From contig JAAZNV010000006.1 of NCBI GenBank assembly GCA_012798115.1, forward strand, positions 19,232-83,231: a DNA stretch of 64,000 nt. Direction: 5' to 3'. Positions 17,041 through 38,864 of this stretch are shown piece after piece. Origin of the DNA: a candidate division WWE3 bacterium (GTDB taxonomy: Bacteria; Patescibacteriota; WWE3; UBA101185; UBA10185). Numbering within the stretch: the first letter of the stretch is position 1; every line of letters starts with the position of its first letter. Made by a program: the position numbers and the translations under genes. Below the pieces are notes generated by a model. It made no database searches and was not told the origin of the DNA. It was given only the letters and a program-made list of their open reading frames with translations.

Positions 17041-17162
17041 ATTGGTTGTTTAGTGTATAACCTCAAAGAATAAAGAAAATAAGAAGGGGTAACATTTATT
17101 AAAAGCTACAAGCAAGTCGCGTTCAACAGAAAGCCACCTAAGTTGATAGATGGCTTTTGTGG

Positions 17163-17624: not shown

Positions 17625-17703
17625 ACATAAGTCAAATGGTGTTTAAAATTACAGTATTTGTGTACTTTGTTAGTTATGTAGTTTAGGATACAATTTACTT
17701 ACT

Positions 17704-23886: not shown

Positions 23887-25383
23887 CTACGATCTAGGTT
23901 TTAACGTTGGAAATGCAACAACATCTTTTATTGCCCAGGTGTCTGTTAAGAACATAACAAGTCTGTCTATCCCAAATCCTATACCTCCAAGAGGAGGGCA
24001 TCCGTATTCTAATGCTTCAATAAATTCTTCATCCAAAGGCATTGCTTCTGCATCTCCTTCTTTCATGTTCTTTTGTTCTTTCTCAAATCTTTCTCTTTGT
24101 TCAAGTCCAGAAACAATTTCACTCCATCCATCAAATATTTCAATTCCTCCAATGTAGCCTTCAAACCTTTCCGTTCTTCCTGGTTTGCTCCTGTGAAATT
24201 TAGCAAGTGGACTTACTGAAGCAGGGTAGTCTATTACCCATGTAGGATTTGATAGCTTAGGAGTAATCTCTTTGTCATAGAGGTTAAAAAGAGCTTTGTT
24301 CTTGTCCCATGCTCCTCTTGTCTTTACTCCATGCTCTTCACAAAGTTTTTTAACTTCATCATCTGTAACTTTACCCCATTCAATCCCAAGGTATTGTTTA
24401 ACAACGTCCTCAATGGTTATTCTTTCCCATTTCTTTCCAATATCAATTTCTTTTCCTTTAACTTTTACTATACTTTTACCTGTAATTTCCTTTACTAAAT
24501 ACTTGATTAATTCTTCTGCTAAATCCATTACTTTATGATAATCAGCATATGCTTCATACCATTCAAGCATGGTAAATTCTGGGAAATGTGAGTGGTCTAT
24601 ACCTTCGTTTCTAAAGTTCTTTGCAATCTCAAATACCTTTTCATATCCCCCAACTATTAATCTTTTTAAATAAAGTTCTGGAGCTACTCTTAAGTAAAAA
24701 TCACAGTCTAAAGCATTAAAGTGAGTACTAAATGGTTTTGCGTTAGTGCCACCATATAAAGGTTGTAACACAGGGGTTTCTACTTCTTCAAATCCCTTAC
24801 TCCATAAAAACTTTCTAATATTTTGTGTGATTTTCCATCTGGCATCAATTACTTTTTTAACTTCATCATTTGTTAAAAAGTCTATATATCTTTTTCTATA
24901 TCTTTCTTCAATATCCTTGAAACCTTCCCATTTATCAGGCAATGGTCTTAAAGCTTTTGAAAGAATTCTAATTGATTTTACTTCAATAGAAATTTGTCCT
25001 GTTTTTGTTTTAGTAACTTTTCCATTTGCTTCTACAAAATCTCCTGTATCAAGCAAATTTAAATCATTAAATCCAATTTCACTATCTTTGTATTCTGGAG
25101 TAGGAAAATTTTCTTCTTTAATATAAAGCTGAATTTTTCCTGATGCGTCTTTTAAGTCTATAAAGTACAGCTTATTGTGAGATCGTATTGATGTGATTCT
25201 TCCTGAAACAACAACGTCCTCACCTTCTAGGTCATTGAACTTTTCTATAACTTCATTGTTTGTTTTTGTTCTGTGAGATTCTGCAGGATAAGGATTAACG
25301 CCAAGCTCAATAAGCTTATTTAATTTACTTATTCTAATATTTCTATATTCTTTGAGAGTTGCCATTATACTCAATTCAACCAC
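23887..25383 (-). CDS. lysS: Lysyl-tRNA synthetase, class II.
   Basis: N-terminal OB anticodon-binding domain, class II motifs (FRNEGID, GGIGFGIDRLVM). Confidence 0.92.
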   Translation of the reverse strand: MVELSIMATLKEYRNIRISKLNKLIELGVNPYPAESHRTKTNNEVIEKFNDLEGEDVVVSGRITSIRSHNKLYFIDLKDASGKIQLYIKEENFPTPEYKDSEIGFNDLNLLDTGDFVEANGKVTKTKTGQISIEVKSIRILSKALRPLPDKWEGFKDIEERYRKRYIDFLTNDEVKKVIDARWKITQNIRKFLWSKGFEEVETPVLQPLYGGTNAKPFSTHFNALDCDFYLRVAPELYLKRLIVGGYEKVFEIAKNFRNEGIDHSHFPEFTMLEWYEAYADYHKVMDLAEELIKYLVKEITGKSIVKVKGKEIDIGKKWERITIEDVVKQYLGIEWGKVTDDEVKKLCEEHGVKTRGAWDKNKALFNLYDKEITPKLSNPTWVIDYPASVSPLAKFHRSKPGRTERFEGYIGGIEIFDGWSEIVSGLEQRERFEKEQKNMKEGDAEAMPLDEEFIEALEYGCPPLGGIGFGIDRLVMFLTDTWAIKDVVAFPTLKPRS

Positions 25384-26617: not shown

Positions 26618-26757
26618 GAGATATGCTTTATCTTGTGGTGAAGACGAAAATAAAAGTACAAAGTATATTGCTTTATATCTACTATTTGTTGATAGTAGAA
26701 TAGTTATGGGTTTAGGAATTTGACATTTTCGATGAAAGAATGTACAAATACCTCATT

Positions 26758-26783
26758 CCCAGCTGCCGCTGGGTGTTTTGTTT
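26758..26783 (+). terminator. Terminator-like hairpin CCCAGC-tgcc-GCTGGG followed by TGTTTTGTTT, in the leader of the giant surface-protein gene.
   Basis: Seen in the sequence. Confidence 0.35.
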
Positions 26784-26838
26784 ATGAAAATGCCTGTTAG
26801 TGTAGCTAATTTAATAGGTTTATTTATTTAACTTCGGT

Positions 26839-26866
26839 GCCACAGTTTTCCTGTGGCTTTTTATAA
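26839..26866 (+). terminator. Second terminator-like hairpin GCCACAG-ttttc-CTGTGGC followed by TTTTT, ending 5 nt before ATG 26871.
   Basis: Seen in the sequence; argues the real start is ATG 26871 rather than the track GTG at 26853. Confidence 0.35.
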
Positions 26867-26870
26867 ATTT

Positions 26871-29800
26871 ATGAAAAAAATAAAAATAAAGATCCACAGT
26901 GAAAAACTGTTTTCGTATGTTGCTATGTTTTCTATGGTTGCAAATGTGTTATCTCCATTTGCAGCTGTGCTTCCTTCCACTGCTTATGCAGAAGGTTCTT
27001 CTACTACAGAAACTACTCAGCAAGTAGAGGAAGAATCTAAAGAAGAAGTTAAACCTGAGGAAGAAGCCCCTGCAGAAGAACCAGAAGGAACGGTAGAACA
27101 AATAGAAGAGCAGAGTACTGAAAAAGAAAGCACCGAAGAAACCCAAGAACCTGTACAAGAAGAAACTGCTGAGCCAAAAGTTTCAGTAGAGTCTTCAAAT
27201 GAAATACCAGAAGGTAAATTTACAATAGATTCAGTAGAGAGTCCTATAACAGAACCTGAAGTCGTAGAAGTTATAACTCCTGCTGAACCGGTAGTTGAAG
27301 AACCAGCAATGGTAGAAGAACAGACAGGAGATATACTTCCTGATGGAGTCTCTGACTACAGACCAGAGATAGAGATTGAAGAAGGTGAAGCTACAGAGGT
27401 TCAGGAAGTTGTAGATCCTGTTTCAACAGAAACTAGTAGTACAGAGCCGGAAGTAGTTATTACAGAGCCTAGTGAAACTGAACCAGCAGTAACTGTTGAA
27501 CCAATTACTCCAACTGAAACTGGAGAAACTCCTAAAGAAGTAATTAAAGAATATGAGACGTTAGCAGATGGAGCAGAAGTAAAAGATAGTACAAAAGAAG
27601 ATTGGGATATTGATGGGGAAAAAGCTGAAACGAGGGAAGTAGTTAAACTTGGTATTAAATATATTTTCCCTATAGATAGTGAGGATAATGAAGTTAGTGT
27701 TACATTTACTAAACTTCCAAAATTAAGTGAAGATAAATCTACTTTAATAATAGAAAGAGTAAAAGTATCAGATCTTGATTTACCTGAAGATTTTAAAACT
27801 GATGCAGAATATGCATTTGATATTACTACTCCAGATATGAATGATGGAGAATTTGAATATAATTTAACTCTTCCTAAACCTGAAGGTGTGGACGCAGAAG
27901 TTGCATATATAGAAAAATCAATAAATGAGGCTAAAGATGAAGTTAAGAGTGAAGATGTAAAAAAGGTTGAAGAAGATAAAATTGATCAGGACGGCGGAAG
28001 CATAAAAGTAGAAAGTTTAGATCACTTGACCTTATTTATTCCTCTTGGTGGTGTAGTTCTTAGTGTATCTGGTAGTTTTGATGGCGCAACACAGGTTACT
28101 GTGGAACCTGGGACTGCTATTGAAGTTGATATTACAGTAGAGCGTAGTGATGGTTGGGATTGGTGGAGTAATGATGTTGAAAATGATTGGAAAGCTACTT
28201 CTTGGAAAATAAATGATGGCTCTTGGAATTGTGAGAATCACAGTGATCATACATGGGGTAATGGGACAGACACAGGTTCCTTCAATATTACAGCTCCTCT
28301 GGCAGAAGGTACGTACGACGTCAGTTTCAGGGCACATAGAAGTAATTCATGCGAAGACACTGGTGTTAGTAATACATTTACGTTAACAAATGGAATTAAG
28401 GTTGAAAGTTACTCTGCTCCAAGTCCAACACTTCATTATAATGTTAACGATGATTATGTTTTAACATCTGTTTCAGGAGTCTGGACAGATGTAAATGGTG
28501 GTAGTGAAGTAACTGGCGAGGGAACTAATGAAGTTAGGTGGGGACGTAGCGCAGAATATGGCAAGAAGAGTGGATTAAGATTTGATGGCAGTGATCAACA
28601 AAGTTTTAATGAAGGAAGTAGTTTTTATCTTGGAGCATTAACGCACTTTAACTGGCCAATTACCAATGCTTCACGTGGAGCCACTCTTAAGATCACTTTG
28701 CATTTTTCTAAACCTGGTATAAGTCCAGATCCAGATTTTAGTTATGACTTTAATATAGAAGAAACTTCTAACAGCTATGGTCATTGTCTTTCTTGGCAGC
28801 AAAGTTCAACTCCTTGTGATGACAAGATAACATTTCCATCTAGTTATGGTGAAAAGAGTTTTACAATAGGAGATAAACTTTATACTCTAAAAATATTAGG
28901 ATTTGTTAACTCCTATCCAGGAGGTTCTCCTGTTTCTCAGTTTATTACAGAAGAACAAAAGAATAACACAGCTTATTTAGTTGGTACCCTTTCATCTGTT
29001 CTTGTTCCTGCTCCTCAAATAACCCTAGTTGAGAAAGCAATTAATGGTAATGATGCTGATTCGTCTCCTGGAGATAGCTTATATGTTGGAGATGCAGTAA
29101 CATTTACCTATCAAGTTCAAAATACAGGTAATGTTGATTTAACTAATATAGTTATTCATGATAACGACTCAAGTTTATCTGTTACTTGTCCTTCTACGTC
29201 TTTAACTTCTGGGTCTTCTATGACCTGTACAGCAACAAGTACCGTTAAGCTAGGGAATTATCACAATACTGCTTATGTAACAGCAAAGCATGGTTCTCAG
29301 TCTTTAAGGAGTAGTGATGAAGAAGGATATTATGTTGGTGTAAATAGAATAATTTGTGGCGATGGTATAAAAGATGTTTCGGAAGCATGTGATAACGGTC
29401 CTGATAATGGAGATGTTTGTACGGCTCCTTATGATGGGGATTGTAATTATTGTGGTGTAAGTTGTGAGATTATAACAGTGAGAGGGCCCTACTGTGGAGA
29501 TGGAACTAAGAATGGGTCGTCAGAACAGTGTGATGGTCTAGACTTGGGTAATCTACCATCTTCAGATTTTTCTTGTACTAAAAAATGTGAACTTAATTTA
29601 ATTCAAGATAAAGTAACTATTTGTCATGCTGACGCTTCTGGACATAAACCATATACCATCAATAAGCCAAATAAATCTGCTGATGTAAATGGACACGATG
29701 GGCATAATGGACCTATTTGGTTCCTAGGTATAACAGGCGATTGGGGAGATATAATTCCTCCATTTTATTACGTTGGGGGTTATTACGTCGGAAAAAACTG

Positions 29801-32800
29801 GACGCCTGAAGGTGAAGCAATTTGGAGGAACGGTTGTGATGTTCCACCATACTGTGGTGATGGGGTTATAAATCAGCCTACAGAACAATGTGATGATGCT
29901 AACTCTGTAAATAATGATGGGTGTAGTGCCACGTGCCAGCTTGAAACTGGAACAATTACAATTATTAAGGATGCACAACCTGATGATAGTCAAACATTTA
30001 ACTTTACATATGAGAGTAATCCTTATGCTATCGGTAATTTCAGCTTAACAGATAATGGAGGTGGCAATGAAAAGATAAGTTTTGCGTCTATTCCAATAGG
30101 GTCATACTCTTGGACTGAGGATCTAGTTACAGATTGGCGCTTGGATAGCATTGCATGTGATGATAGCAATAGCGTTGGGGACTTATCAGCAAGAAGAGTT
30201 GATGTTGTGTTAGATGCTAATGAACATGTAACTTGCATCTTTACTAATGTGTTGAAGACTGGGACAATCTCAGGAGTCAAATTTGAAGACATAAACGGCA
30301 ATCGTGTCCAGGACAGTAATGAACATGGACTATCTGGTTGGACAATATATATTGATAGCAATAAGAATAATCAATTGGATGCTGGTGAACCTACTCAGGT
30401 TACTGATGTAAATGGAAACTTTGTTTTCAATGGCTTAACTCCTGGAAAATACTGGGTGAAGGAAATTAATCAAACTGGTTGGAGTCAAACAGTGCCAGCA
30501 GGGCTATACCAGGAAGTTGATCTGAAAGCTGATGAAAATGAGTCTATATATTTTGGAAATCAAAGGAATCCAGTAACTATAAATGCATATAAAGTAGTTT
30601 GTGATAATGAGTCTTACTTACCAAATTATGGTATTGGTGGACCAGACATTACTTCTACAACAGCACAAGATTGGGTAAGTAACAGCAATGGACATTGTAA
30701 GCTTGAACCTAACTGGAAGTTCCAGTGGAGTTTTGATGGTGTAGATAATCCTGGAGATAATATAACCAGTGAAGCAGGAACAGGTTGGAATACTTTTGGT
30801 CCAACTGATGGTGATGGTTTTGCACAAGTTAAGATCTATCAGCTTGATACGCCTAAGCTTTGGTTTAGAGAAGTACTTCAAGATGGTTATATTCCATTTA
30901 CATATGGAGCACACCCCGATAATTCAGATAATGTAAGTGCTGAGTTTTACTGCAATGATGATGTTTTTAACTACGATAACTGGGAATGGATAGATAACCC
31001 GCAATACGGAAATACTTACTACTGTGTTGCATGGAACACACTAAAGAAGGGATCTTTAGAAGTAACAAAGACTGTAAACTGGACAGAAATTATTCCTGAT
31101 GTGTCAAAGACTTTTGAAGTATGTATAACAGGTCCTTCTTACACATCTGGAAACTGCAAGACGATAGATTATGATGGTGGAACTTTAACGTGGAATGATT
31201 TATTGCTGGGTGATTACACAATAACAGAATCTGATCTTGGTGCACATTGGTCAGTTGTTGGTTCTGGATCTGTAGTTTCAGTATCTGATTCCTCTACGAC
31301 ACATCAAATAACTAATACATACATCCCATACTGTGGCGATGGAGTTAAGAATGGAGCAGAGCAATGTGATGGGAGAAGTGGAGTTAATGAAGATATGGAG
31401 TTTTGTACTAGCCAGTGTAAGCTAGTTCCAGTTTACGATGGTAATCATGAGTGTCCAAAAGGAACAATTGAAAAATATATTACCGGAATTACTTTAGGTA
31501 GCCAAAGTAGTTCTTTGCAAACACTTAATTTATCAGGTGGGAGATCTTATCTTCTAAAAGCTTTTGGAACTTACCAATATGGTAGTGGTTCTACAAGAAA
31601 AGCTGACCCAGCTTATGGATCTGAGGATAATTTTGCTACCTGGAGACCTGATATAGGAATTTGGGGTGTAAACAACAGAGGTGTTACTTCAATTCTAGGA
31701 AATCTAGGACGTGGGATGGGTGTAATTGAATGGGATAACGATAAAAATATTGATGAAGATCACATTTATGAAAAGTTAATTAAGCCTGAAAGTGACTTGG
31801 AAGCAAAGTTTGTTATTAGCGACTGGTACAGCAATTGGTATGGAAACAGCTGTGATAATCAAGGTTGTATGACTGATAATAATGGCTCGTTGAATGTAGA
31901 TTTGTATGAATGTGTTGAACCAAGTTCAATTCAAGGAAAGAAATTCAAAGATGTTAATGGCAATGGGATAAGAGACAGTGGTGATACGTACCTTGATGGT
32001 TGGACAGTAAATCTGTATCAACAAAAAGAAGGGTGGAGTTTAGTAAAAAGCATGATAACAGGCAATGATTTAACTGAAGCTGGATCAGTAGATCAAGGTC
32101 AATACAGATTTGTTAATCTTCTTCCTGGAAAGTATTTAGTTTGTGAGGAACTTAAGTCTGGTTGGGTGCAAACAGCACCAGTTGAAGGGACTTCTTATAA
32201 CGGTACTACTTGTTACGAAATAGACCTAGCAGCTGGAAAAAGTGAGGTTGGAAAAGTGTTTGGTAACTTTGAATTAGGAAAAGTTCAAGGTATGAAGTTT
32301 AATGATCTAGATGGGGATGGAAACTCACATGAAACTGGTGAAGAATATTTAAATGGTTGGACAATTAGATTATATAAAGATTGGGCAGAACCAGTTGAAG
32401 TTATAACTTCAAATACAGGAACTTTAGGGCAATATAAATTCGAGAATTTAAAGCCAGGAACTTATCAGGTTTGTGAGGTTTTACAACAAGGATGGGTACA
32501 GACATGGCCAAGTGCTGGGGATATTCCAGTTGGAGACAATGGAGTTACACACCCCAACTATGGAACTGCTGTTATTAATTCATCTAGTGCTTTAGATGAG
32601 GGTGCAAATTGCTGGCAAACAGTAGTTTCCGCATCGGGTCAATTCAATCAGCTGTTAAGGTTTGGGAACTCAAATCTTGGATCAATTCATGGTATGAAGT
32701 ATATAGATACTTCTGGTGATGGGAACTTTGATAGCGGAACCGATTGGGGTGCTTCTGGTTGGACAATAAATTTGTATAAACTAGTTAATAGCACGTATGT

Positions 32801-34994
32801 TCTTGCAAGTTCGGTATCAACTGATTCAAATGGATATTATTCATTTGCAAATCTCGAGCAAGGAACATACAAGTTGGAAGAAGTTCAACAATCTGGTTAT
32901 CAAATTATAAATCCATCTGCAGGAATTTATGAAGGAATTATTTTAAATCCTGGAGATAATTTAACGAATTATAACTTTGGTAATTTCCAGAACGGGAGTG
33001 TGTACGGTTGCAAGTACAACGACTTAGACGGTGATGGTGTTAGAAATAGAGAAATTGAACCTCAAATGGCAGGTGTAACAATGAACTTATATGATTCTTC
33101 ATGGAATTTAGTAGCATCAACAGCTACATCTGAAGGCTCTGGATATGGTAATAATTACTCGTTTAGTAATCTTCTTGGAAAGGGTACTTATTACGTTTGT
33201 GAAGTAATGTGGAAAGGTTGGGCACAAACTGAACCTAACGCGGAAAATGGTGTACTAAATGTATCACCAAATGCAGAAAATGAAGGTTCTTACTGCAGAA
33301 AGATAGAAAATAACTACTCTGGTGGTGGTTATGCAAGTCAAAGGTTTGGTAATGTTTTTGTAAATCCAAAACTTCAAATCTCAAAGAGTAATGATGCATC
33401 TTCTGCAAAGAAGATTGGAGATATTGTTACATTTACCATAAAGGTAAAAGTATTAGACTTCAAGCTTGATAATGTAACAGTTCTAGATCTTCTTCCAAAA
33501 GGATTCATATTCCAAGATGAGGATTGGGGAGTAACCTCCAGCAACCCATTGTTTAGTTTCACAGGAGATCCTCATTATGCCTCTCCTGGGACATGGAAGT
33601 TAGGGAGTCTACAGAAAGATGAAGAAGTTACTATTACATATGAGGCTAAAGTTGGATCAGATGTAGACCCTGGTGTTTATAAAGATTTGGCTTGGACTTC
33701 TGGGGATGATATTTTAGGTAGTAATGTCTTAGGCTTGGCTCAAGATGGTAAGGTAAATGATTATTTTGTAGGTACAGAAGTTGAAGTAACAAAGGACAAG
33801 GATTCTACTAAAGATACAGTTGATGTGAAAGAAACAGAAGAAGAGGAAGAGAAAGAAGAAGTGTTGGGTGCTTCTGATGTAAGATTACCTGCTACAGGAG
33901 CTAGCACAGCTATACTAGATGTAGTTTTAATAGCTGGTTTAGTGGGAGCCTTACTTATGATAATTGGAGGTATAGGAAAAATGTTAAAAGCTAAAAAGAA
34001 AAAGGATAAAAACTCAAGACTTAAAAAAGCGTTGTTAACAATGCTTATGTTAAGTTTTAGTTTGATACTTACTAGTAAAGTGTATGCAGAGTCAGACTCT
34101 AAACTAGTTGCTAGAATAGAAGATCCTAAATCTCCTGCTATATCATCGTTCAGCTTAAGCTTTGTTGTTCTTGATGCAAATGAAACACCAAGAAGTATTG
34201 AAGCTCAATGCTGGAAGAAAGGCCCGCTTGATTTAGACTTTGTTAAGTTTGCAGATCCTAGCGTTGATGGTGTGGGTGGAAACACAAATAATTGTTTGGT
34301 TGATAATTCAGTATTAACAAAATCAGGGACATATGTGTTTAAAGTTAAGGTTAAGGCTGATAGCGGTGATTGGCAAGATTCAATAAACACAGCCGCTGTT
34401 GTGTTTGATAATGATGGACCTGATAAACCGAAATATATAGAAAAAGATAAGAAGTCTGATTGCAAATATGAGATAACGCTAAAAACAGCAGATGATGATC
34501 AAACATCTTATATAGAAGTGTATAAAGATGATGATAAAGAAATGAATCTTCATTCTGGTAACTTGATTAAGACTAAGACAATAGGACCTGATGAAAAATA
34601 TGAATTTACGTATGAAGTTTATAGCAGTGATTGTGCAAAAACATGGTATTTTGCTGTAATTGCATTTGATGATTCTGGTAATGCATCGGATCCTAGAGCT
34701 GAAGAAGTAGTTACAAAGGTTACAGTAACAAAAACTACTAAAACGGAAGAAGTGCTTGGGGCGCTTGAAGTTCCTGGTGGAGCAAACCTTTCGCAGGAAG
34801 GTGAAGGAGCAAACAAGGAAGTACCTACTAAGACTAGTGAAGAATCAAAAGGTGCAGTTCTTGGAGAAAAAACTCAAGAACAAGGATTTGTGCTAAGGGT
34901 AGTTAAGTCTTTATGGTTTTGGTTAATAATTGTTCTTCTTGTGTATATCATTGTACGTGTTGTTAAAAAGAAACAAAATAAAAAGAAAAGGTAA
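26871..34994 (+). CDS. Giant modular cell-surface protein (about 2707 aa) with an internal LPATG sorting signal and an in-frame C-terminal module.
   Basis: Signal peptide, acidic E/T/P-rich spacer, at least three CGDG...CDDGN Myxococcus-type Cys-rich repeats, five SdrD-B/Cna-B-like repeats (GxKFxDxNGNG...GWTIxLY...PGxYxVxE), a DUF11-like repeat, then LPATG, TM and KAKKKKDK tail. Confidence 0.85.
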   Translation: MKKIKIKIHSEKLFSYVAMFSMVANVLSPFAAVLPSTAYAEGSSTTETTQQVEEESKEEVKPEEEAPAEEPEGTVEQIEEQSTEKESTEETQEPVQEETAEPKVSVESSNEIPEGKFTIDSVESPITEPEVVEVITPAEPVVEEPAMVEEQTGDILPDGVSDYRPEIEIEEGEATEVQEVVDPVSTETSSTEPEVVITEPSETEPAVTVEPITPTETGETPKEVIKEYETLADGAEVKDSTKEDWDIDGEKAETREVVKLGIKYIFPIDSEDNEVSVTFTKLPKLSEDKSTLIIERVKVSDLDLPEDFKTDAEYAFDITTPDMNDGEFEYNLTLPKPEGVDAEVAYIEKSINEAKDEVKSEDVKKVEEDKIDQDGGSIKVESLDHLTLFIPLGGVVLSVSGSFDGATQVTVEPGTAIEVDITVERSDGWDWWSNDVENDWKATSWKINDGSWNCENHSDHTWGNGTDTGSFNITAPLAEGTYDVSFRAHRSNSCEDTGVSNTFTLTNGIKVESYSAPSPTLHYNVNDDYVLTSVSGVWTDVNGGSEVTGEGTNEVRWGRSAEYGKKSGLRFDGSDQQSFNEGSSFYLGALTHFNWPITNASRGATLKITLHFSKPGISPDPDFSYDFNIEETSNSYGHCLSWQQSSTPCDDKITFPSSYGEKSFTIGDKLYTLKILGFVNSYPGGSPVSQFITEEQKNNTAYLVGTLSSVLVPAPQITLVEKAINGNDADSSPGDSLYVGDAVTFTYQVQNTGNVDLTNIVIHDNDSSLSVTCPSTSLTSGSSMTCTATSTVKLGNYHNTAYVTAKHGSQSLRSSDEEGYYVGVNRIICGDGIKDVSEACDNGPDNGDVCTAPYDGDCNYCGVSCEIITVRGPYCGDGTKNGSSEQCDGLDLGNLPSSDFSCTKKCELNLIQDKVTICHADASGHKPYTINKPNKSADVNGHDGHNGPIWFLGITGDWGDIIPPFYYVGGYYVGKNWTPEGEAIWRNGCDVPPYCGDGVINQPTEQCDDANSVNNDGCSATCQLETGTITIIKDAQPDDSQTFNFTYESNPYAIGNFSLTDNGGGNEKISFASIPIGSYSWTEDLVTDWRLDSIACDDSNSVGDLSARRVDVVLDANEHVTCIFTNVLKTGTISGVKFEDINGNRVQDSNEHGLSGWTIYIDSNKNNQLDAGEPTQVTDVNGNFVFNGLTPGKYWVKEINQTGWSQTVPAGLYQEVDLKADENESIYFGNQRNPVTINAYKVVCDNESYLPNYGIGGPDITSTTAQDWVSNSNGHCKLEPNWKFQWSFDGVDNPGDNITSEAGTGWNTFGPTDGDGFAQVKIYQLDTPKLWFREVLQDGYIPFTYGAHPDNSDNVSAEFYCNDDVFNYDNWEWIDNPQYGNTYYCVAWNTLKKGSLEVTKTVNWTEIIPDVSKTFEVCITGPSYTSGNCKTIDYDGGTLTWNDLLLGDYTITESDLGAHWSVVGSGSVVSVSDSSTTHQITNTYIPYCGDGVKNGAEQCDGRSGVNEDMEFCTSQCKLVPVYDGNHECPKGTIEKYITGITLGSQSSSLQTLNLSGGRSYLLKAFGTYQYGSGSTRKADPAYGSEDNFATWRPDIGIWGVNNRGVTSILGNLGRGMGVIEWDNDKNIDEDHIYEKLIKPESDLEAKFVISDWYSNWYGNSCDNQGCMTDNNGSLNVDLYECVEPSSIQGKKFKDVNGNGIRDSGDTYLDGWTVNLYQQKEGWSLVKSMITGNDLTEAGSVDQGQYRFVNLLPGKYLVCEELKSGWVQTAPVEGTSYNGTTCYEIDLAAGKSEVGKVFGNFELGKVQGMKFNDLDGDGNSHETGEEYLNGWTIRLYKDWAEPVEVITSNTGTLGQYKFENLKPGTYQVCEVLQQGWVQTWPSAGDIPVGDNGVTHPNYGTAVINSSSALDEGANCWQTVVSASGQFNQLLRFGNSNLGSIHGMKYIDTSGDGNFDSGTDWGASGWTINLYKLVNSTYVLASSVSTDSNGYYSFANLEQGTYKLEEVQQSGYQIINPSAGIYEGIILNPGDNLTNYNFGNFQNGSVYGCKYNDLDGDGVRNREIEPQMAGVTMNLYDSSWNLVASTATSEGSGYGNNYSFSNLLGKGTYYVCEVMWKGWAQTEPNAENGVLNVSPNAENEGSYCRKIENNYSGGGYASQRFGNVFVNPKLQISKSNDASSAKKIGDIVTFTIKVKVLDFKLDNVTVLDLLPKGFIFQDEDWGVTSSNPLFSFTGDPHYASPGTWKLGSLQKDEEVTITYEAKVGSDVDPGVYKDLAWTSGDDILGSNVLGLAQDGKVNDYFVGTEVEVTKDKDSTKDTVDVKETEEEEEKEEVLGASDVRLPATGASTAILDVVLIAGLVGALLMIIGGIGKMLKAKKKKDKNSRLKKALLTMLMLSFSLILTSKVYAESDSKLVARIEDPKSPAISSFSLSFVVLDANETPRSIEAQCWKKGPLDLDFVKFADPSVDGVGGNTNNCLVDNSVLTKSGTYVFKVKVKADSGDWQDSINTAAVVFDNDGPDKPKYIEKDKKSDCKYEITLKTADDDQTSYIEVYKDDDKEMNLHSGNLIKTKTIGPDEKYEFTYEVYSSDCAKTWYFAVIAFDDSGNASDPRAEEVVTKVTVTKTTKTEEVLGALEVPGGANLSQEGEGANKEVPTKTSEESKGAVLGEKTQEQGFVLRVVKSLWFWLIIVLLVYIIVRVVKKKQNKKKR
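30258..33240 (+). repeat. Region encoding five divergent SdrD-B-like (Cna-B type) beta-sandwich repeats, interleaved with other domains, inside the giant CDS.
   Basis: Repeating protein pattern (I/V)xG(V/M)K(F/Y)xDxNG(N/D)G...GL(S/D)GWT(I/V)xLY...GxYxFxNLxPGxYxVxE...GWxQTxP, seen five times. Confidence 0.6.
33885..33899 (+). other. LPATG sortase recognition motif codons (followed by a hydrophobic segment 33900-33980 and a basic tail), internal to the giant ORF.
   Basis: TTA CCT GCT ACA GGA read directly; downstream ASTAILDVVLIAGLVGALLMIIGGIG then KMLKAKKKKDK. Confidence 0.75.
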
Positions 34995-35628
34995 CTTAGA
35001 TCTGCTAGATACTTTAATTAGACTAGGGCTATTTTTAATAGCCCTAGCTTTGTTACTATTTGTTGTTATCTTTTGTCCTGTAGTTATTAAAGAAATAGAG
35101 TATAGATTATCAAAACCTAGTGAAAATATGGTTGTTCTAGCCCCTAAGAGCAGTTCTACAGGGGTTGCTAATGAGGGTAAAGAAATAGTACCAGTAGATA
35201 AGGATTTTAGTATTGTAGTGCCAAAAATCAAAGCAAACTCTAAGGTAATTCCTGATGTAGATCCTTATGACTCTAAAATATACCAAAAGGAATTAACTAA
35301 GGGAGTTGCTCATGCCAAAGGCAGTGTTTACCCTGGACAAGTAGGCAACTCTTTTTACTTTGCTCATTCTTCAGACAATTTTTATAATGCAAATAGATAT
35401 AATTCAGTTTTTTATCTCTTAAATAAATTGGAAGAAGGAGATTTGTTTTATTTTTCTTATAAAGAAGAATTATTCAAGTATAAGGTTGTTCAAACAAAGA
35501 TCGTTGAATCAGAATCAATCAATTACTTAAGTGGAAAAACAAATAGAAAACTAGCAACACTCATGACCTGTTGGCCAGCAGGTACTACACTTAAAAGATT
35601 GGTTGTGGTGGGAGAGCTAGTAGAATAA
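34930..35628 (+). CDS. Sortase (class A/E-like transpeptidase).
   Basis: N-terminal membrane anchor, catalytic His region (YFAHSSDNF), Cys motif (LATLMTCWPAG), conserved Arg (TLKRLVVVG). It overlaps the last 65 nt of the LPXTG substrate gene in another frame. Confidence 0.75.
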   Translation: MFFLCISLYVLLKRNKIKRKGNLDLLDTLIRLGLFLIALALLLFVVIFCPVVIKEIEYRLSKPSENMVVLAPKSSSTGVANEGKEIVPVDKDFSIVVPKIKANSKVIPDVDPYDSKIYQKELTKGVAHAKGSVYPGQVGNSFYFAHSSDNFYNANRYNSVFYLLNKLEEGDLFYFSYKEELFKYKVVQTKIVESESINYLSGKTNRKLATLMTCWPAGTTLKRLVVVGELVE

Positions 35629-35673: not shown

Positions 35674-36924
35674 ATGTCCAAAGTCTCAAATATTAGCTCA
35701 GACTCTTTTTTGCAAGATTCCATTGATTCAAACAGCTTAGACAATATGAACTTACAACCTCTTCAAGAGAGTACTTCTCAAGTAACAACTTTATATCCGG
35801 AGAAGAATATTATGAATGGAAAAGGAAATAAAAAAGCTTTAAGAATAATTAAAATAATATTTGCATTATTTCTTGTCTTGTTTGTTGCTTGGTTGATTCT
35901 TTCTAAGACGAGCAGTGGCAATATTGTGAGTCCATTTTCTAATAATTCAACTGTAAATAAAGAAACTAAAGTAATGTGTGATTTAACTGGAGAATACTTT
36001 ACTGAAGATCAAGCTGCTTACTGGAAAGATCAAAGACCTTTTGGAGTGATGATAAATAATCATGTTGATGCTAGACCTCAGTCTGGTTTAGTTTATGCAG
36101 ACTTGGTTTATGAGATAGTTGCTGAAGGAGGAATTACAAGGTTCTTAGCTTTCTTTCTTTCTAATACCCCAGAGAAAATTGGTCCTGTAAGAAGCACTCG
36201 TGAGTATTATCTTGTTTTGGTAAAAGAACTTAGTGATGCAATGATTATGCATATTGGATATTCCCCACAAGCTCTTATTGCAATAGATACGTGGCCAGTT
36301 AGAAGTTTATTTAGAGGTGGTTGTGAGTCTTTGCCTGGGTGTGAGTGGAGAGATAATCCAAGAAATGTAGCTTACGAGCATACTGCATTTGTTAATGGTG
36401 TAAAACTAAGAGAGCTTGGTGCAAGCTTAGGATGGGAAGGAAAGGGGGATATTAGACTTTGGAAGTTCAAGGATTCTGCTGATAAATATTCTCAAAGGCC
36501 AAGTGCAAGTAAAGTATCAATTGATTTTTGGACTAAAGGAGATTATTCAAGCATATTTACTTATAATCAGCAAAATAATTCTTATCTTAAATACACTGGT
36601 TATGATTCTAGTGACCAACCAATTCCAACTGTAGATCAAGAAACAAATGTACAAGTAGAAGTTAAAAATCTAATTGTCCAATTTGCAACGGAAACATCCA
36701 TAGATGGGGATGAAAAAGGAAGATTAGAGTATCAGCTTGTTGGGAGTGGAAAGGCCTTAGTATTTGTTGATGGAAAGGTAATTAATGCTACTTGGAATAA
36801 GTCAGGAAGAGATGATAGAACCATATTTTACGATACAGATGGAAATGAGGTAGAATTTAATAGAGGAAAATTTTGGATAGCAATAGTACCTGACAGGAAC
36901 GTTGATCAGGTAGTCTATAATTAA
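35674..36924 (+). CDS. DUF3048 (YerB-like) domain lipoprotein or membrane-anchored protein.
   Basis: DQRPFGVMINNHVDARPQSGLVYADLVYEIVAEGGITRFLAFF matches the DUF3048 N-terminal region. Confidence 0.6.
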   Translation: MSKVSNISSDSFLQDSIDSNSLDNMNLQPLQESTSQVTTLYPEKNIMNGKGNKKALRIIKIIFALFLVLFVAWLILSKTSSGNIVSPFSNNSTVNKETKVMCDLTGEYFTEDQAAYWKDQRPFGVMINNHVDARPQSGLVYADLVYEIVAEGGITRFLAFFLSNTPEKIGPVRSTREYYLVLVKELSDAMIMHIGYSPQALIAIDTWPVRSLFRGGCESLPGCEWRDNPRNVAYEHTAFVNGVKLRELGASLGWEGKGDIRLWKFKDSADKYSQRPSASKVSIDFWTKGDYSSIFTYNQQNNSYLKYTGYDSSDQPIPTVDQETNVQVEVKNLIVQFATETSIDGDEKGRLEYQLVGSGKALVFVDGKVINATWNKSGRDDRTIFYDTDGNEVEFNRGKFWIAIVPDRNVDQVVYN

Positions 36925-36943
36925 TCTGCCCCAAGGAATAAAT

Positions 36944-37531
36944 ATGTTAAATAAAATATTTGTGTCTGAAGTGAGAGTTAATATATTAAAATTGCTTCTT
37001 CTTAATCCAAAAAGGAGTTATCACGTAAGAGCTATTGTTAGACATGTTGGTGCAGAAATAAATGCAGTAAGAAGGGAGCTTGAAAATCTTTGTGAAATTG
37101 GTCTTGTTACCAAAAGACAAAGCTCTAATAGAATCTTCCATCAGATAAACACAAACCACCCTTTTTATTCCGACCTTCTTTCTCTCGTAGCTAAGGAGGA
37201 TGGCATAGGTGCTGCTATTGTTAAAAAGGCAAAATACATAGGAAGTATTGACTATGCAGTTTTATCTCTTGCTTTTTTGAGAGGTAGAAAATCTACAGCC
37301 TTAGATGTTGATTTATTTATAGTTGGAAATATTGATATTAAAGTTCTTGAAAGCATTGTAAGGGAAGAAGAAGATAAGACAGGAAGAGAAATAAATTATT
37401 CTGTGATGGATATGGATGAGTTTATGAACAGAAAAAGAACAAACGATCCTTTTATATATAGGGTTCTCACTCAAAGCAGGACAATGCTGATTGGTGATGA
37501 TGAGAAGTTTTGTGCAGTAATAAATGCTTAA
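36944..37531 (+). CDS. Winged-helix transcriptional regulator-like protein.
   Basis: N-terminal wHTH-like (VRVNILKLLLLNPKRSYHVRAIVRHVGAEINAVRRELENLCEIGLV). Confidence 0.4.
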   Translation: MLNKIFVSEVRVNILKLLLLNPKRSYHVRAIVRHVGAEINAVRRELENLCEIGLVTKRQSSNRIFHQINTNHPFYSDLLSLVAKEDGIGAAIVKKAKYIGSIDYAVLSLAFLRGRKSTALDVDLFIVGNIDIKVLESIVREEEDKTGREINYSVMDMDEFMNRKRTNDPFIYRVLTQSRTMLIGDDEKFCAVINA

Positions 37532-38864
37532 AAATGATTACTTTAAAGCAGTTTTAATTTCTTTTCTTTTTTCTTTATCTGTTCTTGTTGTTCTCCCTAA
37601 AATCCCAGTGTTTGTTAATAGTAAGCTGTATAAAGTAGACTCGTATGTTGGAGGATATCAAATTAAGATAGGATCGTTAAATCTTGATTTATCAAGATTT
37701 AGGAGTGGTGTAGATGTTCAAGGCGGGGATAAAATAATATTGAAAGTTGAAGACTTTGAACAACAAGATAAAGGTAAATACTTATCTTCTTTAGTTGAGG
37801 TGGTTATAAGAAGACTTCTTTTAGCTGGGTACTCTGATTTTAGCGTGGGGATAGAAAATGCAAATAACGGGGAAGTCTATATTCTTGTTCCAGAATTTTT
37901 AGATTCTTCTAAAATTAGTAGTTTAGTAAGTGGAAGTGGGGATATAGAAATTAAAAAGTTAAAGGATCCAAATAAATGGAGTGCTGAAGTAGCTTCTGAA
38001 TTAATTTCAGAACCTTCCGAATGGGTATCTACTGGTTTAACTAGACAAGATATTGAAGATTTAAGGTTAATAAGAAACACATCTGGACAGGATCAAATTC
38101 AGCTTATATTCACTCCCGAAGGAAAAGATAAGTTTAAAGAATTTCTTAAGGATATTTTAAATAAACCTTTTAGTATCAATGTAAACGGTTCGCCCCAACC
38201 TATTGCTGCACCAGTAGTGTCACAAAGCTTAGTTGACCAACCAAATTTAGATCCAGTTATTACAGGTGGGTTTGAAACAAATACTGTTAAAGATTATATA
38301 GTTCAAATGAAAAATCCAATCTTATCACATTTAAATGTTTCTGTTAATAAGGGTGTAAAAGCACAACTAGGAGATAACTTTTTAAATAAGTGTATCTTAT
38401 CAGTTCTTATTGGAATTTTAGTTTCATTTGTTTTTTTTACCTTAAAGTTCAAAAGTTATGGTGTAATAGGAAGTGTTTCTTTAATGCTGTCTTTAATACT
38501 TTTTTGTGCACTCTTTAAAGTTTTTTCTTTAGTAATTAATGTTTTTAGCATAGTTTCTTTTGTCATTTTTTATACTGTACTACTTGAATTTACTAATTTA
38601 GTTTTGTTAAATATCTCGTCTTCAAGTTCATCAAGTAAACCTAGAAATTTAGCTGTACGACAAGCTTTTAGTGTAAATATTGAGAGTTTGAAACTAATTT
38701 TAGTTTCTTTCCTTTCTTTTGCTTTTGTATTTTCTTTTTATGTTCACGACAATACTAAATATTTCTTATCAACTTTAGTACTTGGAGCCTTAGTTATAGT
38801 TTTTCATTATTTTTATTTATTAAAAACTTTTATTGAGTTATTTGGAGGAGAAGATGAAAAGTAG
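37524..38864 (+). CDS. SecD-like protein-export membrane protein (divergent).
   Basis: RSGVDVQGGDKIILKV resembles the SecD GLDLRGG periplasmic motif; C-terminal polytopic region with an odd SSSSSS run. Confidence 0.4.
   Translation: MLKNDYFKAVLISFLFSLSVLVVLPKIPVFVNSKLYKVDSYVGGYQIKIGSLNLDLSRFRSGVDVQGGDKIILKVEDFEQQDKGKYLSSLVEVVIRRLLLAGYSDFSVGIENANNGEVYILVPEFLDSSKISSLVSGSGDIEIKKLKDPNKWSAEVASELISEPSEWVSTGLTRQDIEDLRLIRNTSGQDQIQLIFTPEGKDKFKEFLKDILNKPFSINVNGSPQPIAAPVVSQSLVDQPNLDPVITGGFETNTVKDYIVQMKNPILSHLNVSVNKGVKAQLGDNFLNKCILSVLIGILVSFVFFTLKFKSYGVIGSVSLMLSLILFCALFKVFSLVINVFSIVSFVIFYTVLLEFTNLVLLNISSSSSSSKPRNLAVRQAFSVNIESLKLILVSFLSFAFVFSFYVHDNTKYFLSTLVLGALVIVFHYFYLLKTFIELFGGEDEK

What the first reader, a model, noticed from the sequence alone, without database searches (positions are those of the whole stretch)
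26871..34994. 2.7-kaa adhesin-like surface protein combining Myxococcus-type Cys-rich repeats, SdrD-B-like repeats and a DUF11 repeat, in a small genome.
The gene occupies about 13 percent of this window. The Cys-rich CGDGxxxxxExCDDGN repeats are typical of Myxococcales and other Gram-negative lineages. They are fused here to staphylococcal-type SdrD B repeats and a Gram-positive LPXTG anchor, an unusual chimeric architecture that suggests host or partner attachment, for example an episymbiotic lifestyle. The repeats are divergent at the DNA level, so they are not recent tandem duplications.
Basis: partly seen in the sequence, partly recalled or inferred. Interest (0 to 1): 0.55.

Follow-up and report, generated by a model that had tools for sequence, protein, structure and literature searches.

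The report
Multiply cleaved CPR adhesin, internal sortase signal
Its sortase "anchor" is not at the end: it lies inside the protein and is followed by a conserved second membrane protein. Its tip also carries a self-cleaving GAIN-like domain, so one gene probably yields several surface pieces.

Summary
The ORF (26871-34994, +, 2707 aa) and its domain families are confirmed: 5 SdrD_B, SpaA_4, DUF11/CLIPPER, DUF7507, one significant Cys-rich repeat plus three motif-only copies, and choice-of-anchor K. It is NCBI NMB91363.1 from a candidate division WWE3 bacterium.

1. LPATG (aa 2339-2343) is not C-terminal; 364 residues follow. They are TM1, a basic loop, a signal-peptide-like TM2 ending VYA|E, two FN3-like domains, a linker and a C-terminal TM. 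A sortase gene overlaps the 3' end. This cassette ends at least 143 divergent proteins, and 948 50%-identity clusters match its profile. All named members are Patescibacteria. In four loci the same parts are two overlapping genes. Neither Pfam nor NCBIfam models it.

Best reading: a Sec-exported polyprotein cut by signal peptidase, autoproteolysis and sortase. No cleavage is shown experimentally. The verdict is a new variant of a known kind.

The parts
26871..34994 (+). Whole ORF: precursor of 2707 aa plus stop codon. It is identical to NCBI NMB91363.1, annotated 'DUF4215 domain-containing protein [candidate division WWE3 bacterium]'.
   Evidence: The same ORF is intact in 4 independent assemblies at roughly 97-99% identity.
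26871..26990 (+). N-terminal signal peptide, aa 1-40, with predicted cleavage at AYA|E. It carries the family-specific motif S-[LM]-[LV]-x-[NQ]-x3-P-[FY]; here this is F20-SMVANVLSPF-30.
   Evidence: Read directly from the sequence. The motif is conserved in 38 of 56 full-length members by a strict regular expression, and most others are near variants. N and P are invariant or nearly invariant in alignment A5.
26991..27575 (+). Acidic, Pro/Thr/Ser/Val-rich low-complexity spacer, aa 41-235: 61 D+E against 8 K+R.
   Evidence: In the family the spacer has a median length of 136 aa and a net charge of -0.26 per residue.
27576..28049 (+). Conserved head domain, aa ~236-393: a GAIN_B/ZU5/FIIND-like (MAIN-type) beta-sandwich.
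28023..28031 (+). H385-L386-T387, an HX(S/T) motif. The predicted autoproteolytic bond is L386|T387, in the 4-residue turn between the last two strands (aa 377-383 and 388-393).
   Evidence: H[FL][TS] is kept in 45 of 46 family members that have the head domain. The mechanism and motif are taken from bioRxiv 10.64898/2026.05.12.724683.
28467..28979 (+). Choice-of-anchor K domain, aa 533-703.
   Evidence: NF038131, 120 bits against a cut-off of 30.
29013..29297 (+). DUF7507 / CLIPPER_2 domain, aa 715-809.
   Evidence: PF24346, 59-60 bits.
29346..29951 (+). Cys-rich CGDG repeat region. Repeats start at aa 829, 875 and 995; only aa 987-1027 is individually significant.
   Evidence: TIGR02232 55.4 bits and DUF4215 31-37 bits. 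Motif positions.
29955..30248 (+). SpaA_4 prealbumin-like stalk domain, aa 1029-1126.
   Evidence: PF24514, 41-49 bits.
30279..30536 (+). SdrD_B domain 1, aa 1137-1222.
   Evidence: PF17210, 47 bits.
31323..31430 (+). Fourth CGDG Cys-rich repeat, aa ~1485-1520. It is below threshold.
   Evidence: DUF4215 E = 0.017. Motif position.
31944..33245 (+). SdrD_B domains 2-5, at aa 1692-1775, 1810-1892, 1943-2018 and 2049-2125.
   Evidence: PF17210, 35-43 bits each.
33372..33701 (+). DUF11 / CLIPPER domain, aa 2168-2277. It is the last passenger domain and is conserved across the family.
   Evidence: PF01345, 39-42 bits. Invariant columns in alignment A5.
33855..33899 (+). EEVLGAS-DVR-LPATG, aa 2329-2343: the internal sortase sorting motif together with a conserved upstream VLG element.
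   Evidence: Of 154 family sequences examined, 143 have an internal [LM]PxTG (LPATG in 105), and 137 of those have a VLG-type motif within 14 aa upstream.
33903..33980 (+). TM1, aa 2345-2370: the hydrophobic part of the sorting signal, acting as a stop-transfer segment.
   Evidence: Hydropathy. AF2 predicts a helix.
33981..34028 (+). Basic cytoplasmic loop MLKAKKKKDKNSRLKK, aa 2371-2386. M2371 is preceded by GGAGG 9 nt upstream and is a possible internal start codon.
   Evidence: In the family the loop has a median length of 8 aa and a net charge of +4. Met is enriched at the loop boundary: 74 of 143 members, against a background Met frequency of 0.8%.
34029..34088 (+). TM2, aa 2387-2406: a re-export, signal-peptide-like segment ending VYA|E.
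   Evidence: In split-gene relatives the homologous segment is the N-terminal signal peptide of a separate gene. A small-x-small site lies upstream of the VR(I)E(E)P motif in 104 of 104 members where that motif was found.
34089..34700 (+). Ectodomain of the post-sorting module, aa 2407-~2610. It has a conserved N-terminal strand (LVARIEDP) and two FN3-like beta-sandwiches containing a PKYIEKDKK..C motif.
   Evidence: AF2 pLDDT 80-95 across the ectodomain. Foldseek against the PDB gives tandem FN3 pairs and RbmA at E ~1e-7 to 1e-6. Alignments A1-A4.
34701..34907 (+). Disordered linker, aa ~2611-2679, containing a second EEVLGA (aa 2626-2631) and an invariant VLG (aa 2663-2665).
   Evidence: pLDDT below 50. 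A [VIL]LG motif lies within 70 aa before the last TM in 140 of 150 members, against a background of 6.6%.
34908..34991 (+). TM3 (aa ~2681-2698) plus the basic tail KKKQNKKKR: the C-terminal membrane anchor of the module.
   Evidence: A C-terminal TM is found in 150 of 154 members, with a median tail charge of +4.
34957..35628 (+). Sortase gene, 223 aa, with an N-terminal TM anchor and a TLMTC catalytic motif. It overlaps the adhesin gene by 38 nt.
   Evidence: PF04203, 72.7 bits. TIGR01076 62.5 bits, but below every class-specific cut-off. Sequence features. A sortase lies immediately downstream in all 10 related loci where downstream sequence is available.
26758..26857 (+). Structured 5' leader with two terminator-like hairpins just before the start codon. 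This is context only and its role is unknown.
   Evidence: fold z = -4.1. No Rfam family matched.

Best explanation
The ORF encodes a Sec-exported precursor, in effect a polyprotein, of a fibrillar surface adhesin of a WWE3/Patescibacteria cell. The sequence implies four processing events.

1. Signal peptidase removes a family-specific signal peptide (AYA40|E).
2. The conserved N-terminal GAIN_B/MAIN-like domain cuts itself at H385-L386|T387. This leaves an acidic ~345-aa cap held non-covalently on the tip of the stalk by the last beta-strand. It is a force-labile joint.
3. TM1 stops transfer, the basic loop stays in the cytoplasm, TM2 re-initiates export and TM3 stops it again. The topology is N-out, three spans, C-in. 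The sortase encoded by the overlapping next gene cuts LPAT2342|G and links the ~1950-aa stalk to peptidoglycan. The stalk consists of choice-of-anchor K, CLIPPER_2, the Cys-rich repeats, SpaA_4, 5 SdrD_B domains and CLIPPER.
4. The remainder stays in the membrane. Probably after signal-peptidase cleavage at VYA2406|E, it is a separate protein of about 300 aa: an N-terminal strand, two FN3 domains, a flexible linker and a C-terminal TM.

The function of that module is inferred only. I take it to be a partner that acts at the site of anchoring, either as an assembly or positioning factor for the sortase reaction or as a membrane tether for the base of the adhesin, in the way proposed for PamR.

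Shown: the architecture, its conservation, the linkage to sortase, the existence of split and fused forms, the fold and motif of the head domain.

Inferred: every cleavage event, the topology and the role of the module.
For: Internal sorting signal followed by a conserved module:
- LPATG lies 364 aa before the C-terminus and is followed by TM1, a basic loop, TM2 ending in AxA, an ectodomain and TM3 with a basic tail.
- The ORF is intact in 4 independent assemblies.
- Five genome loci from different Patescibacteria, at 40-69% identity, all have the same in-frame arrangement.
- A profile search found 948 cluster representatives at E <= 1e-3 and 481 at E <= 1e-30. In the top 150 the whole profile nearly always matches, and always at the extreme C-terminus, of proteins up to 3321 aa long.
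- Of 154 family sequences examined, 143 have an internal [LM]PxTG 298-429 aa before the end.

Topology: the positive-inside rule fits, with a median loop charge of +4 and a median tail charge of +4.

Sortase: a sortase gene lies directly downstream in every locus where it could be checked. The one in the window has a TM anchor and TLMTC.

Split forms: in L015-L018 the same parts are two genes. Gene 1 ends ...LPxTG-TM-basic tail-stop. It overlaps by 8-14 nt a gene 2 that begins with a canonical signal peptide homologous to TM2. A sortase gene follows where downstream sequence is held (L015, L017).

Module fold: two FN3-like domains.

Against: - No cleavage has been observed; everything rests on sequence, predicted structure and comparative genomics.
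- The sortase belongs to no defined class, so its specificity and its acceptor are unknown.
- The standard LPXTG-anchor model of NCBIfam did not report the site.
- TM2 may stay uncleaved, in which case the module would remain a 3-TM protein.
- In described MAIN proteins the domain sits next to the anchor, so that the passenger is released. Here it is distal and would release only an acidic cap, so its biological purpose is unclear.
- No sequence-level link of the head domain to YfkN-type MAIN domains was tested. A profile search against PDB sequences found nothing, and Foldseek against the PDB found nothing below E = 0.1.
- The four split loci come from short or low-coverage contigs. They could in principle be frameshift errors in A-rich DNA.
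Confidence: 0.62

Rival explanations
1. This is an ordinary LPXTG adhesin with a C-terminal wall anchor. Whatever follows is irrelevant or an annotation or assembly artefact, for example two genes joined by a sequencing frameshift or by a recently lost stop codon.
For: Split two-gene versions exist. The junction is A-rich, so it is prone to indel errors.
Against: The fused frame is identical in 4 independent assemblies. It is present in 143 of the 154 family sequences examined and in 5 genomes of different lineages. Such conservation at 30-45% identity excludes an artefact or a recent accident.
Confidence: 0.03
2. There are two proteins in practice. The module is made mainly from an internal start (M2371, with GGAGG 9 nt upstream) as an ordinary secreted, membrane-anchored protein. 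The in-frame continuity with the adhesin is tolerated because sortase and signal peptidase separate the parts anyway. Fusion then has no function of its own.
For: Met is strongly enriched at the boundary between TM1 and the loop: 74 of 143 members, against a Met frequency of 0.8%. SD-like GGAGG lies upstream in the window, L009 and L010. Split forms start exactly there.
Against: Without a stop codon, every ribosome that finishes the adhesin must also make the module, so the fused product is unavoidable. The fused form is by far the commoner state (143 against 4). The GGAGG may simply encode the conserved Gly-Gly of TM1 in an AT-rich genome. This reading adds to the polyprotein model rather than excluding it.
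Confidence: 0.2
3. Sortase does not attach the adhesin to peptidoglycan. Instead it ligates Thr2342 to the co-translated module, either at a Lys side chain as in pilus assembly or at its new N-terminus. The TM hairpin is excised and the adhesin ends up membrane-tethered through the FN3 pair and TM3.
For: The two parts are made in 1:1 stoichiometry and inserted side by side. The sortase scores best, although below threshold, against class C pilus-type models. A CPR protein of the same architecture, PamR, is proposed to tether a filament to the membrane.
Against: No invariant Lys is seen in the module: the K of PKYIEK is R in P0012 and P0135. The residue after the AxA site is variable (E, A, G, S), not a conserved Gly or Ala nucleophile. 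Peptidoglycan genes are present in the window and in a related locus (DacB-type carboxypeptidase in the window; Mur ligases and a PBP in L014), so the usual acceptor should be available.
Confidence: 0.1
4. The sorting motif is vestigial. The protein stays uncut as a three-span membrane-anchored adhesin, and the neighbouring sortase serves other substrates.
For: The site was not reported by the NCBIfam LPXTG-anchor model. No other LPXTG protein is seen in this window, so the substrate range cannot be judged here.
Against: LPxTG is kept in 143 of 143 members that reach that far, with LPATG in 105, together with a conserved upstream EVLG element. Sortase is the very next, overlapping gene in every locus checked. 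The split forms end with a textbook sorting signal.
Confidence: 0.05

Closest known systems
Sortase-dependent LPXTG cell-wall-anchored adhesins of Gram-positive bacteria (MSCRAMM/Sdr type, fibrillar adhesins with CnaB/SpaA/CLIPPER stalks)
   Same: A signal peptide, a long stalk of SdrD_B, SpaA_4 and CLIPPER domains, an LPATG motif followed by a hydrophobic segment and basic residues, and an adjacent sortase with a TLxTC motif.
   Different: The sorting signal is not terminal. It is followed in frame by a second export segment, two FN3-like domains and another membrane anchor, 364 aa in all. This cassette, not the passenger, is the most conserved part of the family. The sortase fits none of the NCBIfam class models (C, D, E, F, GN or the LPxTATN-specific SrtD).
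MAIN domains (Microbial Autoproteolysis INducing, GAIN_B-like) of sortase-anchored proteins such as B. subtilis YfkN (Brogan & Rudner, bioRxiv 10.64898/2026.05.12.724683), and the eukaryotic GAIN, ZU5 and FIIND domains
   Different: The domain lies at the distal N-terminus behind an acidic spacer, not between the anchor and the passenger. Cleavage would therefore free a cap and not the ectodomain. [quoted passage not shown] Sequence homology to YfkN-type domains was not tested, and autoproteolysis has not been shown.
PamR, the RbmA-like 'pilus tether' of the Pam pilus operon of the CPR bacterium Ca. Mycosynbacter amalyticus (bioRxiv 10.64898/2026.03.03.709456; QHN43270.1, 32.8 kDa)
   Same: A signal peptide, an extra N-terminal beta-strand, two tandem FnIII domains (V. 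cholerae RbmA is among the Foldseek hits of the module), a C-terminal TM helix, about the same size, and a CPR host.
   Different: PamR is a stand-alone gene in a chaperone/donor-strand pilus operon for which no sortase is described. The module here is fused behind, or overlaps, an LPXTG adhesin gene and is always followed by a sortase gene. No sequence comparison was possible, so homology is unknown.
Signalling by the sortase remnant: the 'C-pep' left in the membrane after SrtA processing of S. gordonii adhesins, sensed by the SGO_1180 two-component system (as summarised in PMC11326707)
   Same: The piece left in the membrane after sortase cleavage has a function of its own.
   Different: There the remnant is only the ~30-aa sorting signal. 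Here it is a folded protein of about 300 aa with an ectodomain, and no histidine kinase is linked to it in the window.
Myxococcus-type Cys-rich repeat proteins (TIGR02232 / DUF4215)
   Same: One repeat passes both models, and three more share the CGDG...C..C pattern. Such proteins were already noted in CPR genomes (PMC4736985).
   Different: The repeats are a minor insertion specific to this lineage: 2 of 22 family members have them. They do not define the protein.

Membership tests
LPXTG cell-wall sorting signal protein (classical sortase substrate) | N-terminal Sec signal peptide | tested here: met
   aa 1-40: a basic n-region, a hydrophobic core and an AYA|E site.
LPXTG cell-wall sorting signal protein (classical sortase substrate) | LPXTG pentapeptide followed by a hydrophobic segment and positively charged residues | tested here: met
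   LPATG at aa 2339-2343, TM at 2345-2370, then KAKKKKDK.
LPXTG cell-wall sorting signal protein (classical sortase substrate) | The sorting signal is the C-terminal end of the protein | tested here: not met
   A further 364 residues follow LPATG. The same holds in 143 family members, with a median of 366 aa from the start of the motif to the C-terminus.
LPXTG cell-wall sorting signal protein (classical sortase substrate) | A cognate sortase is present | tested here: met
   Overlapping downstream gene with PF04203 at 72.7 bits and a TLMTC motif. The same arrangement is seen in all related loci checked.
LPXTG cell-wall sorting signal protein (classical sortase substrate) | Cleavage between T and G and amide linkage to peptidoglycan | not testable with these tools
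   Requires biochemistry or mass spectrometry.
MAIN / GAIN_B-type autoproteolytic domain | GAIN_B-like beta-sandwich fold | tested here: met
MAIN / GAIN_B-type autoproteolytic domain | Conserved HX(S/T) motif in the beta-turn before the last strand | tested here: met
   H385-L386-T387 between strands 377-383 and 388-393. H[FL][TS] in 45 of 46 members.
MAIN / GAIN_B-type autoproteolytic domain | The domain is placed between the cell-envelope anchor and the released passenger | tested here: not met
   The domain is N-terminal, starting at aa 127-251 in the 42 members whose N-terminus is complete, with only an acidic spacer before it.
MAIN / GAIN_B-type autoproteolytic domain | Sequence homology to characterised MAIN domains (YfkN and others) | not tested
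The Pfam, NCBIfam and PDB-sequence searches gave nothing for this region.
MAIN / GAIN_B-type autoproteolytic domain | Autoproteolysis with the fragments remaining associated | not testable with these tools
   Needs expression of the wild type and a T387A mutant.
SdrD B-like domain (PF17210) | HMM match above the gathering score | tested here: met
   139 bits in total. Five copies score 35-47 bits each against a cut-off of 29.7.
DUF11 / CLIPPER (PF01345) | HMM match above the gathering score | tested here: met
   41.7 bits against 24.6, at aa 2168-2277. TIGR01451 gives 41.8 bits.
DUF11 / CLIPPER (PF01345) | Intramolecular Lys-Asn/Asp isopeptide triad | not tested
   Invariant K, D and D columns exist in alignment A5, but no structural check was made.
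Myxococcus cysteine-rich repeat (TIGR02232 / DUF4215) | HMM match above the cut-off | tested here: met
   55.4 bits against 20.8 for aa 993-1027, and DUF4215 at 31-37 bits against 27. The other three CGDG copies are below threshold.
PamR-like membrane tether (Pam pilus of CPR) | Signal peptide, N-terminal strand, two FnIII (RbmA-like) domains and a C-terminal TM helix | tested here: met
   AF2 model. Foldseek hits are tandem FN3 pairs and RbmA 4kkq/4be5. In split loci the module has its own signal peptide.
PamR-like membrane tether (Pam pilus of CPR) | Encoded in a pam operon with PamA/B pilins and PapD-like chaperones | tested here: inconclusive
   The neighbours here are a sortase, a DUF3048 protein, an HTH protein and a SecD-like protein. 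No Pam pilin models were available to search with.
PamR-like membrane tether (Pam pilus of CPR) | Sequence homology to QHN43270.1 | not testable with these tools

The most novel reading that the evidence does not exclude
Patescibacteria have a dedicated, so far undescribed route for building their giant adhesins. A single ORF carries its own family-specific signal peptide, a distal GAIN-like self-cleaving 'fuse', an internal sortase site and, behind it, a second membrane protein that is released from the same polypeptide by sortase and signal peptidase. Sortase would then act as a polyprotein-splitting enzyme. The FN3 module would be an obligatory partner for anchoring or holding the adhesin at the epibiont-host interface, as a tether or an assembly factor.
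Probability: 0.45. Interest if true: 0.78.

Novelty: new variant of a known kind. Interest (0 to 1): 0.66.

Why it matters
Textbook sortase substrates end with their sorting signal. Here a large and apparently CPR-wide family places that signal inside the protein and follows it with a conserved protein of about 300 aa that has no Pfam or NCBIfam model. At least 948 clusters at 50% identity match the profile, and every named member is a Patescibacterium.

The existence of both fused and split forms ties this module functionally to adhesin anchoring. That gives a concrete handle on how ultra-small episymbionts build and hold the long surface fibres they need to reach their hosts, an area where almost nothing is known beyond type IV and Pam pili.

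The finding also extends the newly reported microbial GAIN (MAIN) autoproteolytic domains to Patescibacteria and to a new, distal position. That suggests a different use of the force-labile joint.

There is a practical point as well. Current pipelines label this protein only as a 'DUF4215 domain-containing protein' and would miss the sortase signal.

Tried and rejected
- Tandem and direct DNA repeats in the gene: none of note.
- Rfam on the 5' leader: only chance miRNA matches.
- The afdb50 fold library was not available.
- The first word-indexed homologue search with the module found only 2 truncated hits. The profile version found 11. The exhaustive representative search was needed to see the family.
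- P0001 and P0002 were uninformative about the junction, because their contigs end inside the module.
- L014: the passenger there is broken into several ORFs. I tested whether genetic code 25 would heal it. It does not, and the stops include TAA.
- Pilin-type Lys acceptor, or an N-terminal Gly/Ala nucleophile in the module: no invariant residue supports either. An attempt at a motif logo was confounded by mis-anchoring of the regular expression and was discarded.
- The NCBIfam 'THxN PEP-CTERM' hit (92 bits) reflects the shared choice-of-anchor K domain. There is no PEP-CTERM tail.
- Literature searches for an internal LPXTG or a sortase-split polyprotein, and for LPXTG or sortase in CPR, found no description of this arrangement. 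The library is limited to open-access papers and preprints.
Full report
**1. The observation**

The window holds one long ORF on the + strand, from 26853 to 34994. The first ATG, at 26871, gives a protein of 2707 aa, which is 12.7% of the window. The exact sequence is in NCBI as NMB91363.1, 'DUF4215 domain-containing protein [candidate division WWE3 bacterium]', on a 252-kb contig. Near-identical copies (~97-99%) with the same uninterrupted frame occur in four independent assemblies, from two Logan SRA runs, a third Logan contig and a JGI metagenome.

- SdrD_B: five copies, each above threshold on its own.
- DUF11 (now called CLIPPER): aa 2168-2277.
- TIGR02232 and DUF4215 Cys-rich repeat: aa 987-1027. 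Three more CGDG copies are recognisable only by motif or at weak E-values.

The scans add choice-of-anchor K (aa 533-703), DUF7507/CLIPPER_2 (aa 715-809) and SpaA_4 (aa 1029-1126). There are no DNA-level repeats.

**2. The LPXTG motif is not a C-terminal anchor**

LPATG is at aa 2339-2343, and 364 residues follow it. In order they are:
- a hydrophobic segment, TM1 (aa 2345-2370);
- a strongly basic loop, MLKAKKKKDKNSRLKK;
- a second hydrophobic segment that looks like a signal peptide and ends VYA|E (aa 2387-2406);
- a region of about 200 aa that AlphaFold2 folds as two FN3-like beta-sandwiches, with pLDDT 80-95. Foldseek matches it to tandem FN3 pairs and to V. cholerae RbmA;
- a disordered linker;
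- a last TM with the basic tail KKKQNKKKR.

The positive-inside rule gives a consistent topology. The passenger is outside, TM1 crosses inward, the loop is cytoplasmic, TM2 crosses outward, the FN3 pair is outside, and TM3 crosses inward.

The next gene is a sortase. It starts at GTG 34957, overlaps the adhesin gene by 38 nt, and has an N-terminal TM anchor and a TLMTC motif. It passes the general sortase model but none of the class models.

**3. The arrangement is conserved, not accidental**

A scan of one genome per species with the module found five loci. All are Patescibacteria: two unclassified, two labelled Saccharibacteria, and one WWE3 (UBA1397). Identity to the module is 40-69%. Each has the same in-frame order: CLIPPER, EEVLGAS, LPATG, TM, basic loop, TM ending in AxA, module, TM.

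An exhaustive profile search over 1.84 billion cluster representatives gave 948 hits at E <= 1e-3 and 481 at E <= 1e-30. In the top 150 the whole 366-position profile nearly always matches, and always at the extreme C-terminus, of proteins 237 to 3321 aa long; the shortest are truncated fragments or stand-alone modules.

I examined 154 family sequences: the 150 listed in that search plus four found earlier.
- 143 have an internal [LM]PxTG: LPATG in 105, LPSTG in 18 and LPGTG in 10. It lies 298-429 aa (median 366) before the end.
- 137 of these have a VLG-type element within 14 aa upstream of the motif.
- The loop has a median net charge of +4.
- 150 have a C-terminal TM with a basic tail.
- 140 of 150 have a second [VIL]LG motif about 24 aa before that last TM. 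The background is 6.6% per 70-aa window.

A sortase gene follows directly in every related locus where downstream DNA is available. Every member that carries an organism name is a Patescibacterium. Pfam and NCBIfam have no model for the module.

**4. Split forms**

Of the 11 representatives without the motif, six are truncated fragments, one (P0098) was not examined, and four are stand-alone modules that start with a canonical signal peptide. Their contigs show two genes.
- Gene 1 is the adhesin. It ends with a textbook sorting signal: EVLGA..LPxTG, a TM, a basic tail and a stop codon.
- Gene 2 overlaps gene 1 by 8-14 nt. Its signal peptide is homologous to TM2.
- A sortase gene follows where the contig extends far enough (L015, L017).

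This is a fused-versus-split ('Rosetta stone') pair. It shows that the module can act as an independent exported protein, and that it is functionally tied to the adhesin and the sortase.

In the fused forms a Met is strongly enriched at the boundary between TM1 and the loop: 74 of 143, against a Met frequency of 0.8%. In the window, L009 and L010 a GGAGG lies 9-10 nt upstream of it. Additional internal initiation is therefore possible. Because there is no stop codon, the fused product must be made in any case.

**5. The other end of the protein**

The family also shares an N-terminal signal peptide with its own motif, S-L-L-x-[NQ]-x3-P-[FY]. A very acidic spacer follows it. Then comes a conserved domain of about 160 aa (window aa ~236-393) that has no Pfam or NCBIfam hit.

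- ankyrin and UNC5 ZU5 domains;

These folds are known for cis-autoproteolysis at an H-hydrophobic-S/T motif in the turn before the last strand. The window protein has D384-H385-L386-T387 exactly in the 4-residue turn between its last two strands. H[FL][TS] is kept in 45 of the 46 family members that carry the domain.

A 2026 preprint shows that bacterial GAIN_B-like 'MAIN' domains cleave at HF|S and stay associated. It also shows that they sit in large, mostly sortase-anchored surface proteins (10.64898/2026.05.12.724683). The head domain therefore fits that kind by fold and by motif.

Its position differs. It is distal, not anchor-proximal. Cleavage would detach only the acidic spacer plus most of the sandwich, and would leave a new N-terminus, TLFIPLGG..., on the stalk.

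**6. Mechanism proposed**

The protein is a Sec-exported polyprotein with up to four cuts:
- signal peptidase at AYA40|E;
- autoproteolysis at L386|T387;
- sortase at LPAT2342|G;
- probably signal peptidase at VYA2406|E.

The predicted products are:
- a non-covalently held acidic cap;
- a stalk of about 1950 aa, covalently bound to the wall;
- a small TM hairpin remnant;
- a membrane-anchored two-FN3 protein of about 300 aa.

The architecture, the conservation, the gene linkage, the folds and the motifs are shown. Every cleavage, the topology and the function of the module are inferred.

For the module I favour a role at the anchoring site. It could position the substrate for sortase, or it could tether the base of the adhesin. 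A CPR protein with the same architecture and size, PamR, has been proposed to tether Pam pili to the membrane through an N-terminal donor strand (10.64898/2026.03.03.709456). The module here likewise begins with a conserved strand, (V)R(I)E(E)P, found in 104 of 143 members by a strict pattern. Homology to PamR could not be tested.

**7. Rivals**

- An artefact or a recent gene fusion is excluded by the conservation.
- A vestigial motif is unlikely, given 143 of 143 conservation and the obligate sortase neighbour.
- Ligation of the adhesin onto the module is possible but lacks a conserved nucleophile.
- Independent translation of the module may occur in addition to the fused product.

**8.

The domain calls and the CPR inference were right. 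The 'unusual chimera' argument is weak. These stalk domains are pan-bacterial (PMC12617251). Cys-rich Myxococcus-type repeats and sortase were already noted in CPR genomes (PMC4736985). Within this family the Cys-rich repeats are a minority feature, in 2 of 22 members.

I class the whole as a new variant of a known kind, a sortase-dependent fibrillar adhesin.

**Caveats**

Everything is computational. The representative library carries no taxonomy, so restriction to Patescibacteria rests on the named subset. The split loci come from short or low-coverage contigs.

Noticed in passing
window 26700-26870 (+): The 5' leader of the giant gene folds unusually well (z = -4.1 against shuffles). It contains two terminator-like hairpins with T-runs, at 26758-26773 and 26839-26857; the second lies 14 nt before the start codon. 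The upstream gene is on the other strand, so these are not its terminators. This may be an attenuator or regulatory leader. No Rfam family matches.
   Followed up: partly
window 26928-26960 (aa 20-30) and the N-termini of P0013-P0154: The signal peptides of this protein family share a motif in the hydrophobic core, S-[LM]-[LV]-x-[NQ]-x3-P-[FY]. It recalls the specialised YSIRK-type signal peptides of Gram-positive LPXTG proteins, a comparison made from memory. It could mark a dedicated export site.
   Followed up: partly
window 33858-33875, 34749-34766 and 34857-34865: A short (E)VLG(A/E) element recurs three times: just before LPATG, and twice in the linker before the last TM. The copies before LPXTG (137 of 143) and before the last TM (140 of 150, against a background of 6.6%) are conserved across the family. 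The function is unknown. It may be a recognition or processing site, or a relic of a duplicated sorting signal.
   Followed up: partly
window 33981 (ATG of M2371), with GGAGG at 33967-33971: A possible internal translation start for the post-sorting module lies inside the giant ORF. Met is enriched at this position across the family, and the split-gene relatives start there.
   Followed up: partly
window 35674-38864; L010 2482-5660; L012 8518-11733: The gene order adhesin, sortase, DUF3048 protein, ArsR-like HTH protein (195 aa), SecD-head-like protein (446 aa) is conserved in related Patescibacteria loci. Whether DUF3048 belongs functionally to the cassette is unknown. It is absent from L011 and from the L014 and L017 loci.
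   Followed up: partly
L014 2391-11362: In one relative (Logan SRR27412187) the passenger is split into five or six consecutive ORFs before the LPATG-module piece. Code 25 does not repair it, and the stops include TAA. This is either a decaying copy or a locus that is genuinely multi-gene.
   Followed up: partly
window aa 394-532, 925-985, 1235-1395 and 1520-1690 (nt ~28050-28466, 29643-29825, 30573-31055, 31428-31940): Four stretches of the passenger have no family assignment in Pfam or NCBIfam. One of them is a His-rich segment, KVTICHADASGHKPY...HDGHNGP, lying between Cys-rich repeats. These may include the actual ligand-binding part.
   Followed up: no
window ~8000-18000: GC skew changes from negative to positive. 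Gene orientation switches from mostly minus to mostly plus around 14-18 kb, near tRNA-Gln at 16710-16783. This may be a replication origin or terminus region.
   Followed up: no
window 23887-25383 (-) and 41083-42375 (+): Two class II aminoacyl-tRNA synthetases of the D/K/N type, both with an OB anticodon-binding domain, lie within 18 kb of each other. Their specificities were not assigned.
   Followed up: no
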